NCBI GenBank assembly: GCA_009914755.4
Contig: CP068257.2
Span: 31,040,001 to 31,104,000, forward strand
Length of the DNA: 64,000 bases
From: the human T2T-CHM13v2.0 reference genome, Homo sapiens
Direction of reading: 5' to 3'
The notes beneath the pieces are model-generated. The model did not search any database. It was not told the DNA's origin and saw only the letters and a program-made list of their open reading frames with translations. Every line of letters starts with the position of its first letter. Position 1 is the first letter of the stretch. Positions 52,791 to 54,740 of the stretch are shown here, piece after piece. Both the position numbers and the translations under genes were made by a program.

Positions 52791-52936
52791 AGAGCACAGC
52801 GACAGCCCCAGACTCGAACATGAGACATTCTTCCTTATGCCTAGTTTCCACTATGAGGCTGAAAGGTGGGGGATCCAATTTGTGATAGATCCGGAATCCT
52901 TTACTGAACGCCATTCTCCTTTCTTCGGAGGCAGCC
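52791..52936 (-). CDS. SYNJ1: SYNJ1 exon 2; ATG of short isoform at 52914-52912 ([41 protein letters not shown], phase-1 end); upstream 22 nt coding only in long isoform; acceptor ttttcgcag| at 52937-52945
   Basis: ATGGCGTTCAGTAAAGGATTCCGG... on minus strand; donor CTCT|gtaagtcatc; polypyrimidine+AG acceptor upstream of ATG. Confidence 0.85.
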
Positions 52937-53299
52937 CTGCGAAAACCAAGCAAAGCAAAGCAAATGAAGCTGATGTTTCCTTCTGCAGCAAGGACTGCAA
53001 AGCATCCAAAAGTCCCTCCCCGCCAGGTTTTGATGGGGGGTTGGGGTGGGAAAAAACAGACAGCTCTGGGAGAAAATGGCTTTTTCCAAAAGATAAGTCG
53101 TCACTTAATTTTACCAAAAAGCAAGAGGAAAAGCTATCAATTCTCATACCAAGGCAAGACAAGGTTTTAGCACTGTAAGTCAATCAACGGTCTGGTTGAG
53201 TTTCCCGTTTAATTTATGCTTACTGAAAGGAAAAATTTTGAGCGTATTTCGTCCGGAGCTGTTTATCAGCTTCCTGCTTCAAGATCTGTCACTACGTTG

Positions 53300-54740
53300 A
53301 AAGGGAACCTATTTGGAAACTTCAAGCAGTTCCTTCGAGGGGAAAGGAGCGGAGGTGGGAGGGAAGGGTGACAAGGCTGGTTCAAAGCTCCTTAGGGGGC
53401 AGGAGAAGGAAAAGGATTATCCCACGCGACAGGCTCTCCCGGGGGTGGCGATGAAGGGCAAGGGAAAAGGCACAGGTTACCGCCGCCTCTCCTGCCCCGG
53501 GCTACCGCCGGCTGGGGGGACGGCAGGCGGGGCCGATAAATACGAATGGCCACCCGGGAAGAGTCACGACTCGGGGCACCGACCCGACTGGGGCTCCTCG
53601 GGGGTCCCGGGCAGTCGACTGCCCGGGAAAGCGGCTCCTTCTCGGAGAGACGGAAGAGCCGAGCAGCCCAAACCCTCCATTTATGCGCCAGAAGAGATAC
53701 CCCGGCGCCCAGGCGGATTCGGTTCGTTCCCGCGGGCGGGCTGACAGCCGCTGTCACCACAGCCCCCAGCCTGACGCGGCACCCCGCACAACCAGTGGTC
53801 TGCTCACAACCCCGCCCGTCCTCCCGCACCCCGGCTGCTCGCGGTCGCCCCTCACCGCTCCCGCTGACGCTGCGGAGGCAGAGACTGGTCTTGGAGGCGT
53901 CCGCCCGCCCGGCTGCCCGTGGGTCTGGCCGCAGCAGCTCCCCGCCCCCCGCCGGCTTGCTCACCTCTTCCTCCGGCTCCTCCTCCTCCTTCTCCCGCAG
54001 CCGCCGCCACAGCCGCCGGGAGCGTCACTTCCGCTCCAGCAGGCCCATCTCTTCCGCATTGCGCCGCGGCCGGGGGCGGAAGATCCGCCCCGCGCGAGGG
54101 AAGGGGCGGGGCATCAGGAGGGAGACCACGCCCACTCTGCGCCGACCGGCTGGGCCTGGCACCCGCGGGCGGCCCCAGCCTCAGTCTCCAGCTACCTTTG
54201 CCTCCTGCGGCCGCCCCCAGGCAGAGCTGCGATCCCACCGCCGGGGGTGCAGGGAGAGGGAAGATCTGGCCTCCTTGGTCCTTTTGCGTGGGCTCTTCAG
54301 AGCGTGAGCGCCGGGGAGGGACTCCGGAGAAAAGCTTGGGGGGCTGCGTATTGCTGCTCCCCAAGCTGGGCGTCAGGACCAACCCCGCCGCCCCCACGGG
54401 CCTGACGGGAGAGGAGGAAGGGCTCGGGACGGTCGGCTCGCCGAGCCAACCAGGTGGCGCCTGAAGAGCTGTCCATGGTGTCGACAGCCCAGCAAACGGC
54501 ACCGAGTTCCTAGTCTGAGTGTCTGGATAGGTAGCAGAAGAAAAACTAATGCCTGCTCTGGGACAGTTCTGTTCGGTGCCTTTTCTTGTGTGTTCTGGAG
54601 CTCACAGGGTTCTATCGAAGAGTGCTTAGGTGTATACGATGGAGAGTGGGACGTCACAAACCAGGATCTCAAGGCTGAGTCCAACAAAACATGGCCGTAG
54701 GGAGGCCACGACAGCTGTGGTTGTCACCGACGGATGAATA
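53300..54740 (-). promoter_or_regulatory. SYNJ1: CpG island / TATA-less promoter of SYNJ1 spanning exon 1 and the 5' end of intron 1; contains (CCT/AGG)n and (GCC)n triplet runs at 53961-54015
   Basis: Very high G+C and dense CpG relative to the CpG-depleted remainder of the window; lies immediately 5' of the first coding exons on the minus strand. Confidence 0.8.
53965..54059 (-). CDS. SYNJ1: SYNJ1 exon 1, coding part for long-isoform N-terminal extension (ATG 54059-54057; 31 codons + 2 nt; donor GTGAGC at 53964-53959); 5'UTR/TSS further upstream in CpG island, not resolved
   Basis: Minus-strand ATG with open frame [32 protein letters not shown] ending ..AAG AG|gtgagcaag; splices in frame onto exon 2 acceptor (AG+G=Arg, then [14 protein letters not shown]) giving exactly a 39-aa extension, matching the known 39-residue offset between SYNJ1 isoform numberings (R258 vs R219). 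Confidence 0.55.

What the first reader, a model, noticed from the sequence alone, without database searches (positions are those of the whole stretch)
52791..54059. Two in-frame SYNJ1 initiation codons: exon-1 ATG adds a 39-residue Arg/Gly-rich extension via an exon1-exon2 splice
Seen in sequence: a minus-strand ATG at 54059 opens 31 codons ([32 protein letters not shown]) that end exactly at a GTGAGC donor (53964). Joining to the polypyrimidine/AG acceptor 22 nt upstream of the MAFSKGF ATG (52914) keeps frame (..[15 protein letters not shown]..). The total is 39 extra residues. That equals the known 39-residue offset between SYNJ1 isoform numberings (R258 versus R219), so both a long and a short N-terminus can be encoded here. 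The extension is almost pure Arg/Gly/Cys, a possible targeting or nucleic-acid-binding-like tail of unknown function.
Basis: partly seen in the sequence, partly recalled or inferred. Interest (0 to 1): 0.5.

Follow-up and report, generated by a model that had tools for sequence, protein, structure and literature searches.

The report
Known upstream start codon of SYNJ1
The upstream ATG and the exon 1-exon 2 splice are real, and they are the start NCBI already annotates for the long-numbered human synaptojanin-1 (the reason R258Q equals R219Q), so the finding is correct but already known; the 39 extra residues evolve fast and look dispensable.

Summary
A minus-strand ATG at 54059 opens 95 nt that end at GAG|GTGAGC. 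Splicing to the acceptor at 52937|52936 adds 22 nt and reaches the MAFSKGF ATG (52914) in frame, which gives 39 extra codons. NCBI human SYNJ1 proteins begin with exactly this peptide, other human isoforms begin at MAFSKGF, and the literature equates R258Q (NM_003895) with R219Q (NM_001160302). The two N-termini are therefore already annotated.

New here is a comparison of nine eutherian genomic sequences and one marsupial.
- ATG1, the reading phase and the donor are kept in 9/9 eutherians.
- The peptide is weakly constrained: pN/pS is 0.38, against 0.00 for the next 41 canonical codons.
- One eutherian carries two in-frame stops.
- In wombat the ATG is conserved, but the donor and acceptor are absent and the ORF ends as a 59-codon upstream ORF.
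- The invariant stretches are two CGGAAG (ETS-type) blocks and a purine tract before the donor. They also lack synonymous change, which points to constraint on the nucleotides rather than the peptide.

The most likely reading is a eutherian-specific, weakly constrained extension. Its use would depend on transcription start choice, leaky scanning and alternative splicing. Interest is low.

The parts
53400..54600 (-). CpG island holding the SYNJ1 promoter, exon 1 and the 5' half of intron 1
   Evidence: GC 0.58-0.75 and CpG observed/expected 0.6-0.86 in 200-nt bins.
54077..54082 (-). CTTCCG, a CGGAAG (ETS-type) core in reverse orientation, flanked by GC boxes
   Evidence: Invariant in 9 eutherians and wombat. 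Reading it as an ETS site is inference from the known consensus.
54057..54059 (-). ATG1, the upstream in-frame initiation codon (G at -3, C at +4)
   Evidence: It is the first residue of the NCBI long-form proteins and is invariant in all 10 species.
54045..54062 (-). Invariant block GCAATGCGGAAGAGATGG, with the second CGGAAG core at 54056-54051
   Evidence: Codons 1-5 show one change in all among 9 eutherians (AGA to AGC, shared by L002 and L012). One eutherian (L005) reads C for the first A of the block.
54025..54048 (-). Out-of-frame ATG (54048-54046, strong context G at -3 and G at +4) opening a 7-codon ORF, MGLLERK, with stop TGA at 54027-54025
   Evidence: Present in 7/9 eutherians and wombat; CTG in L002 and L012.
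54023..54037 (-). Block GGAGCGGAAGTGACG: the third CGGAAG core plus TGACG; its last 12 bases GCGGAAGTGACG are invariant in all 10 species
   Evidence: One eutherian (L012) reads G for the A at the third base of the block. No third-position change in codons 9-12.
53965..54059 (-). Exon 1 coding part of the long form (95 nt: 31 codons plus 2 nt)
   Evidence: Mean pairwise identity among 5 eutherians is 94%, against 71% for the 100 nt upstream and 77% for the first 100 nt of the intron.
53965..53996 (-). Purine-rich tract GGGAGAAGGAGGAGGAGGAGCCGGAGGAAGAG directly before the donor (encodes [11 protein letters not shown])
   Evidence: Nearly invariant in eutherians, third positions included. A role as a splicing enhancer is inference.
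53959..53964 (-). Exon 1 splice donor GTGAGC. Its TGA (53963-53961) closes the ATG1 frame if the intron is not removed here.
   Evidence: GTGAG is kept in 9/9 eutherians and absent in wombat.
52937..53964 (-). Intron 1 (1028 nt)
   Evidence: The junction is implied by the NCBI protein sequence.
53854..53855 (-). Candidate alternative exon 1 donor GAGCG|GTGAGG. If used, the ATG1 ORF becomes a 32-codon upstream ORF.
   Evidence: Conserved in 5/5 eutherians aligned and not in wombat. Use as a donor is not shown.
52937..52965 (-). Pyrimidine-rich tract and AG acceptor of exon 2
   Evidence: CAG or TAG is kept in 7/7 eutherians with this region; wombat has CCG at this position.
52915..52936 (-). 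First 22 nt of exon 2, encoding (R)AASEERR in the long form and forming 5' UTR in the short form
   Evidence: It is 22 nt in all 7 eutherians with this region and 19 nt in wombat.
52912..52914 (-). ATG2, the canonical MAFSKGF initiation codon (A at -3, G at +4)
   Evidence: It is the start of human isoform d, of many NCBI models, and of turtle, sturgeon and bichir SYNJ1.
52791..52914 (-). Canonical coding part of exon 2 (41 codons plus 1 nt)
   Evidence: The protein is identical in 6 eutherians, with pN = 0 and pS = 0.22.

Best explanation
This is the annotated 5' end of human-type SYNJ1. It consists of a CpG-island promoter, a short first exon carrying ATG1, a 1028-nt intron, and exon 2 carrying the canonical MAFSKGF ATG2.

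Shown:
- Splicing 53965|52936 puts ATG1 in frame and adds 39 residues.
- NCBI proteins use exactly this N-terminus, and this is the source of the R258/R219 offset.
- The arrangement (ATG1, phase, donor, 22-nt exon 2 leader) is kept across eutherians. It is not present in a marsupial, where the same conserved ATG opens a closed upstream ORF.
- The peptide is only weakly constrained and is broken by stop codons in one eutherian.

Inferred:
- The extension arose in the eutherian stem, when an older ATG lying inside a conserved ETS-type promoter or leader block became joined in frame by the GTGAGC donor and the CAG acceptor.
- Which N-terminus is made depends on three things. First, where transcription starts within the cluster of three CGGAAG cores, since starts downstream of 54059 lack ATG1. 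Second, leaky scanning past ATG1 (G at -3 but C at +4) to the optimal ATG2, possibly helped by reinitiation after the 7-codon ORF at 54048. Third, use of a downstream exon 1 donor, which would turn the ATG1 ORF into a 32-codon upstream ORF.
- The functionally important protein starts at MAFSKGF. The basic tail is an optional and probably minor proteoform.
For: - Anatomy.
- Exact identity with the NCBI human N-termini, and coexistence of MAFSKGF-start isoforms.
- Literature on numbering and isoforms. Arg219 = c.773 from ATG1.
- Conservation: exon 1 ORF lengths are 95, 98, 98, 104, 95, 86, 98, 98 and 98 nt, all equal to 2 mod 3. ATG and GTGAG are kept in 9/9 eutherians.
- Weak peptide constraint: pN/pS is 0.38 with pS 0.14, against pN 0 and pS 0.22 for the adjacent canonical codons. 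Changes by codon position are 12/4/15, P = 0.06 for a third-position excess.
- L010, syntenic with the human flank, has TGA and TAA in frame.
- Wombat keeps the blocks GCAATGCGGAAGAGATGG and GGAGCGGAAGTGACG but lacks both the donor and the AG acceptor. Its ATG1 ORF ends after 59 codons.
- Contexts of all ATGs in the leader.
- Non-mammalian SYNJ1 proteins start at MAFSKGY.
Against: No transcript, CAGE, ribosome-profiling or peptide data could be reached. The position of the transcription start relative to ATG1, the fraction of initiation at each ATG, and the use of the alternative donor are therefore all inferred.

Frame retention in 9/9 eutherians and pN/pS below 1 are also what a selected peptide would show. 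With five species the third-position excess was nominally significant (P = 0.016).

All indels lie in GGC or AGG triplet runs, which preserve frame by themselves, so frame retention is weak evidence either way.

Several loci were found through protein similarity in this frame, which is an ascertainment bias. The L010 stops rest on one assembled contig from one sequencing run of an unidentified species.

Reading the CGGAAG cores as ETS sites and the purine tract as a splicing enhancer comes from consensus knowledge, not from a test.
Confidence: 0.8

Rival explanations
1. The extension is essentially an annotation by-product. Most SYNJ1 transcripts start within or downstream of the CGGAAG cluster, or scanning ribosomes use ATG1 only as the start of a regulatory upstream ORF. 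The region is conserved because it is core promoter, leader and splice-signal DNA. Virtually all protein starts at MAFSKGF.
For: - The invariant stretches coincide with three CGGAAG cores and the purine tract plus donor, and they lack synonymous change.
- pS in the extension (0.14) is below pS in exon 2 (0.22).
- The ATG is conserved in wombat, where it cannot extend the protein.
- L010 has in-frame stops.
- An open in-frame ORF of this composition is not improbable by chance.
- No paper discussing the extension was found.
Against: - The phase is kept in 9/9 eutherians, and pN/pS is 0.38 rather than about 1.
- ATG1 has a purine at -3, which by Kozak's rules should capture many scanning ribosomes if it is on the mRNA.
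- Curated RefSeq isoforms a and b use it, which implies that cDNAs reach upstream of it.
Confidence: 0.3
2. The 39-residue basic tail is a selected functional module, for example a nuclear or nucleolar localisation signal or an acidic-lipid or nucleic-acid binding tail. On this reading it gives the long proteoform a distinct localisation.
For: - Net charge is about +10.5, with an [10 protein letters not shown] run.
- The ORF is retained in 8/9 eutherian DNAs and in NCBI models of primates, horses, rhinoceros, squirrels, tree shrew and badger.
- pN/pS is below 1.
Against: - Many replacements occur even within primates: C7R, C7W, S9R, P14S, G15R, C17S, G20A, G20R, R32G, a 4-residue deletion in marmoset and a 1-residue deletion in green monkey.
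- One eutherian has stops.
- The extension is absent in marsupial, reptile and fish proteins.
- The adjacent canonical N-terminus is invariant.
- The conserved Arg run is encoded by a purine tract at a splice donor, which is conserved at all codon positions.
Confidence: 0.12
3. The ORF and splice match are coincidental, and the real exon 1 donor lies elsewhere.
For: Other GTGAG motifs exist in the first 200 nt of the intron (GT at 53855 and 53807).
Against: NCBI protein models in human and more than 20 other species contain the exact junction ...[11 protein letters not shown]. The donor is conserved in 9/9 eutherians.
Confidence: 0.02

Closest known systems
RefSeq/NCBI SYNJ1 long-N-terminus isoforms (isoform a NP_003886.3, 1612 aa; isoform b NP_982271.2, 1350 aa; XP models)
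   Same: The N-terminal 46 residues are identical to the NCBI human models retrieved. The 39-residue offset matches 1612 aa against the 1573-aa numbering and R258 against R219.
   Different: Nothing differs; the window feature is this annotation. The curated NP records themselves were not among the sequences listed. Identity was seen on XP models from the same two human assemblies.
SYNJ1 short-N-terminus isoforms (RefSeq c and d; numbering R219Q; MAFSKGF start)
   Same: ATG2 at 52914 with an optimal Kozak context. Human isoform d (P0185) starts here.
   Different: How those transcripts avoid ATG1 (alternative 5' exon or donor) could not be read from the tools. The candidate donor at 53855 is only an inference.
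Alternative N-terminal proteoforms from two in-frame AUGs by leaky scanning or alternative transcription starts (general class)
   Same: The upstream AUG is in a weaker context than the downstream AUG. Both are in frame on one spliced leader, with a short out-of-frame ORF between them.
   Different: Dual initiation is not demonstrated for SYNJ1, and no initiation-site data were accessible.
Upstream ORF converted into an N-terminal extension
   Same: In wombat the conserved ATG opens a closed 59-codon ORF. In eutherians the same ATG is spliced in frame. In L010 it is again a closed 22-codon ORF.
   Different: The direction of change rests on one marsupial sequence and on a partial gene model.
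ETS/GABP-type TATA-less CpG-island core promoters
   Same: Three invariant CGGAAG cores lie within about 55 bp, next to GC boxes and inside a CpG island.
   Different: No binding or transcription-start data. Two of the cores lie inside the annotated coding sequence.

Membership tests
Annotated SYNJ1 long N-terminus (RefSeq isoforms a/b type) | N-terminal peptide identical to the annotated protein | tested here: met
   P0079, P0080, P0114, P0116, P0123, P0130, P0132 and P0136 (NCBI, Homo sapiens) start [46 protein letters not shown], identical to the spliced window translation.
Annotated SYNJ1 long N-terminus (RefSeq isoforms a/b type) | 39-residue offset to the MAFSKGF numbering (R258 = R219) | tested here: met
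   117 nt separate ATG1 from ATG2 in the spliced leader. Arg219 is CGG at 21114-21112, which is c.773 from ATG1.
Annotated SYNJ1 long N-terminus (RefSeq isoforms a/b type) | Locus is SYNJ1 | tested here: met
   Exons encoding residues 1-503 lie on the minus strand and match the remembered human protein at every residue inside the exons. The 1612-aa query retrieved human SYNJ1 at 99% identity.
Annotated SYNJ1 long N-terminus (RefSeq isoforms a/b type) | Exon 1-exon 2 junction supported by transcripts | not testable with these tools
   The junction is seen only indirectly, through protein models. No RNA data are available.
Dual-initiation (leaky scanning) N-terminal proteoforms | Two in-frame AUGs on one mRNA, the upstream one in the weaker context | tested here: met
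   ATG1 context is GGCGCAatgC and ATG2 context is AGGAGAatgG.
Dual-initiation (leaky scanning) N-terminal proteoforms | Experimental initiation at both AUGs | not testable with these tools
   Supplements of four initiation-site or N-terminomics papers are not held. No paper mentions the peptide.
Conserved protein-coding sequence | Purifying selection on amino acids (pN/pS far below 1, third-position excess), ORF intact in all species | tested here: inconclusive
   pN/pS is 0.38. Changes by codon position are 12/4/15 (P = 0.06). The ORF is intact in 8/9 eutherians, with two stops in L010, and is not joined in frame in wombat. The control, exon 2 coding sequence, has pN/pS 0.
ETS-type core promoter element | Conserved CGGAAG cores near the transcription start | tested here: inconclusive
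   The cores are invariant in 10 species. The transcription start position and factor binding were not testable.
Structured RNA element in exon 1 | Folding energy beyond composition, or an Rfam match | tested here: not met
   z-score is -0.45 against 200 shuffles. There is no Rfam match in the window.

The most novel reading that the evidence does not exclude
The long start used for clinical SYNJ1 numbering may be a eutherian-only, nearly neutral add-on. On this reading, an ancient upstream ATG sitting in an ETS-type promoter or leader block was captured in frame by a new splice donor and acceptor. In human neurons it would be used little or not at all. Start-loss, frameshift and missense calls in c.1-117 would then be systematically over-interpreted, and the ATG1 ORF would act mainly as a regulatory upstream ORF or a switch controlled by transcription start or donor choice.
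Probability: 0.3. Interest if true: 0.35.

Novelty: already known. Interest (0 to 1): 0.12.

Why it matters
The two starts explain a standing source of confusion in the Parkinsonism and epilepsy literature, where R258Q and R219Q are the same change and other variants are shifted by 39.

If the extension is dispensable, as the stops in one eutherian, its absence outside eutherians and its weak constraint suggest, then variants in c.1-117 should not be read as loss of function. This includes loss of ATG1 and frameshifts in the GGC run. Constructs that start at MAFSKGF would be adequate models.

None of this changes what is known about SYNJ1 function.

Tried and rejected
- The first protein search with 199 aa returned only short fragments and no protein covering the extension. 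This appears to reflect the lengths of the hits returned, and a 1612-aa query solved it.
- An exact-pattern scan of metagenome contigs for the exon 1 block found nothing.
- Look-ups of Meles and Rhinopithecus proteins gave no DNA: one is not the longest product, and the other gene exceeds 100 kb.
- The turtle locus turned out to be an intronless copy of exons 2-4 without the promoter block, so it says nothing about exon 1.
- SINE probes did not identify the species of L001, L002 or L005. Only L001 can be tentatively called equid, from its peptide.
- Literature searches for the peptide, for an N-terminal extension, for ribosome profiling of SYNJ1 and for a SYNJ1 promoter study found nothing relevant.
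- Supplements of four initiation-site or N-terminomics papers are not held.
- An RNA structure explanation for exon 1 conservation was rejected: z = -0.45 and no Rfam hit.
- A coding reading of exon 1 in another frame was considered, as in the wombat partial model P0065. It was rejected for eutherians because that frame has no ATG and does not join MAFSKGF.

Full report
**Observation.** On the minus strand, ATG1 sits at 54059-54057. From there the frame is open for 95 nt up to GAG|GTGAGC, with GT at 53964-53963. Without splicing, the TGA inside the donor (53963-53961) closes the frame after 32 codons. A pyrimidine-rich run ending in CAG (AG at 52938-52937) precedes exon 2, which starts at 52936. 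The MAFSKGF ATG2 is 22 nt further on, at 52914. 95 + 22 = 117 nt, so the join is in frame and yields [39 protein letters not shown] followed by MAFSKGF. Exon 2 ends at 52791. A TGA 19 codons upstream makes ATG1 the first ATG of its frame.

**Identity of the locus.** Eleven further exon pieces on the minus strand (28058 down to 4652) encode SYNJ1 residues 41-503, matching the human protein as I remembered it at every residue inside the exons. A 1612-aa query retrieved NCBI human SYNJ1 at 99% identity. The records lie on contigs of 46,709,983 and 45,090,682 bases, which from my own knowledge are the chromosome 21 lengths of GRCh38 and T2T-CHM13. The extension peptide is identical in human and chimpanzee, so I call the window 'human-type'.

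**Is it already known?** Yes. Eight human NCBI models start with exactly the 46 residues predicted from the window. Human isoform d and several other models start at MAFSKGF. PMC11047088 states that R258Q (NM_003895) is also known as R219Q (NM_001160302). PMC4181773 gives isoform a as 1612 aa and isoform b as 1350 aa, and says isoforms c and d have a shorter N-terminus. In the window, residue 219 of the MAFSKGF numbering is Arg (CGG, 21114-21112), and its middle base is c.773 counted from ATG1.

**Is the extension conserved, and as what?** I collected orthologous genomic DNA as follows.
- Four unidentified eutherians came from sequencing-run assemblies found with the first search (L001, L002, L005) and with a profile of those hits (L009, L010, L011, L012).
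- An arctic ground squirrel locus, L007.
- A wombat locus, L006.
- L010 is collinear with about 5 kb of the human upstream flank, so it is the ortholog.

In all nine eutherians ATG1 and the GTGAG donor are present. The ATG1-to-donor lengths are 95, 98, 98, 104, 95, 86, 98, 98 and 98 nt, all equal to 2 mod 3. The exon 2 leader is 22 nt in the seven species where it is available.

NCBI models carry a 35-41-residue extension in primates, horses, rhinoceros, squirrels, tree shrew and badger. Exon 1 is a sharp conservation peak: 94% mean pairwise identity, against 71% for the 100 nt upstream and 77% for the first 100 nt of the intron.

The pattern is not that of a well-selected peptide.
- Minimum changes by codon position are 12/4/15, with 12 synonymous-type and 17 amino-acid-changing (P = 0.06 for a third-position excess). 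With only five species it looked better, at 5/1/10 and P = 0.016.
- Nei-Gojobori proportions give pN/pS = 0.38, with pS = 0.14. The 41 canonical codons that follow have pN = 0 and pS = 0.22 in the same species.
- L010 has TGA at codon 23 and TAA at codon 31 (counted along the L010 ORF; codon columns 25 and 34 of the alignment).
- Primates alone show at least ten replacements, a four-residue deletion in marmoset and a one-residue deletion in green monkey.
- Turtle, sturgeon and bichir proteins start at MAFSKGY.
- In wombat the blocks GCAATGCGGAAGAGATGG and GGAGCGGAAGTGACG match human base for base. However, the three codons between them change radically (ACW to LLR), the GTGAGC donor is absent, the acceptor is CCG rather than CAG, and the ATG1 ORF ends after 59 codons.

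The unchanging stretches are 54062-54045, 54037-54023 (apart from a single base in one species each) and, in eutherians, the purine tract 53996-53965. These stretches also lack synonymous change, apart from three third-position changes in the purine tract (AGA/AGG, CGG/CGA, AGG/AGA). The first two each contain CGGAAG, and a third core lies in reverse orientation at 54082-54077 among GC boxes. From established consensus knowledge, SCGGAAGY is the ETS/GABP/ELK motif typical of TATA-less CpG-island promoters, and GAR-rich runs next to a donor are typical splicing enhancers. I therefore infer that much of the conservation is at the nucleotide level. RNA structure does not explain it: z = -0.45 and no Rfam hit.

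**Mechanism (inferred).** An old ATG embedded in the promoter or leader block became an in-frame start in the eutherian stem, once the GTGAGC donor and the CAG acceptor existed. Three things would decide which N-terminus is made.
- First, the transcription start position relative to 54059.
- Second, leaky scanning. ATG1 has G at -3 and C at +4, while ATG2 has A at -3 and G at +4. A 7-codon out-of-frame ORF at 54048, in strong context, could support reinitiation about 82 nt further on at ATG2.
- Third, a downstream exon 1 donor. GAGCG|GTGAGG at 53855 is conserved in 5/5 eutherians, and its use would leave the ATG1 ORF as a 32-codon upstream ORF.

None of these three could be tested here.

**Verdict.** The finding is accurate and its interpretation is supported, but it restates existing annotation. 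The added result is modest: the extension is confined to eutherians among the species compared here (one marsupial, one reptile and two fishes lack it), weakly constrained and lost in at least one lineage. This argues against the 'functional targeting tail' idea. It also suggests caution when interpreting variants in c.1-117. Literature searches found no study of the extension itself.

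Noticed in passing
window 53742-53756 (minus strand), intron 1: Palindrome TGACAGCGGCTGTCA: two TGACAG half-sites of MEIS/TGIF/PKNOX type in inverted repeat. It is kept, apart from one central spacer base, in the four eutherians whose contigs reach it and in wombat, within an otherwise diverged intron.
   Followed up: no
window 53854-53855 (minus strand): GAGCG|GTGAGG, a candidate alternative exon 1 donor, is conserved in 5/5 eutherians. 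Its use would make the ATG1 ORF a 32-codon upstream ORF ending at TGA 53963-53961.
   Followed up: partly
window 54025-54048 (minus strand): An out-of-frame ATG in strong Kozak context opens a 7-codon ORF, MGLLERK. It is kept in 7/9 eutherians and in wombat (where it reads MAPPERK), and is CTG in L002 and L012.
   Followed up: partly
L010 3568-3662 (Logan SRR14860617): The orthologous exon 1 of an unidentified, rather diverged eutherian has two in-frame stops (TGA, TAA) in the extension ORF. The second change also creates GAG|GTAAAG, a possible donor 5 nt upstream.
   Followed up: partly
L008 10001-10500 (Chelonia mydas KB490848.1): SYNJ1 exons 2-4 are contiguous without introns and are followed by a GTGAGT donor, preceded by a leader with no ATG. 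This could be a partial retrocopy, intron loss or an assembly artefact.
   Followed up: no
P0176, P0177, P0182-P0184 (Macaca, Chlorocebus models): Predicted SYNJ1 isoforms with other first exons that skip exon 2 and join at ...SAEKEAIKG. They lack both ATG1 and ATG2.
   Followed up: no
P0098 (Piliocolobus tephrosceles): The model uses an acceptor 9 nt upstream of the usual one, inserting FHR into the extension ([13 protein letters not shown]). The frame through the acceptor region is open (compare P0061).
   Followed up: no
window 59850-60478: A block 81% identical to L002 (a diverged eutherian) lies about 6 kb upstream of SYNJ1. It has no long ORF and is probably the 3' UTR of the neighbouring gene. 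An Alu-like sequence lies at about 62125-62490.
   Followed up: partly
window 54112-54114 (minus strand): A further upstream out-of-frame ATG (context CTCCTGatgC) opens a 29-codon ORF ending at the same TGA as the 7-codon ORF. Only human has the ATG among the aligned species; the others read ACG, AAG and the like.
   Followed up: no
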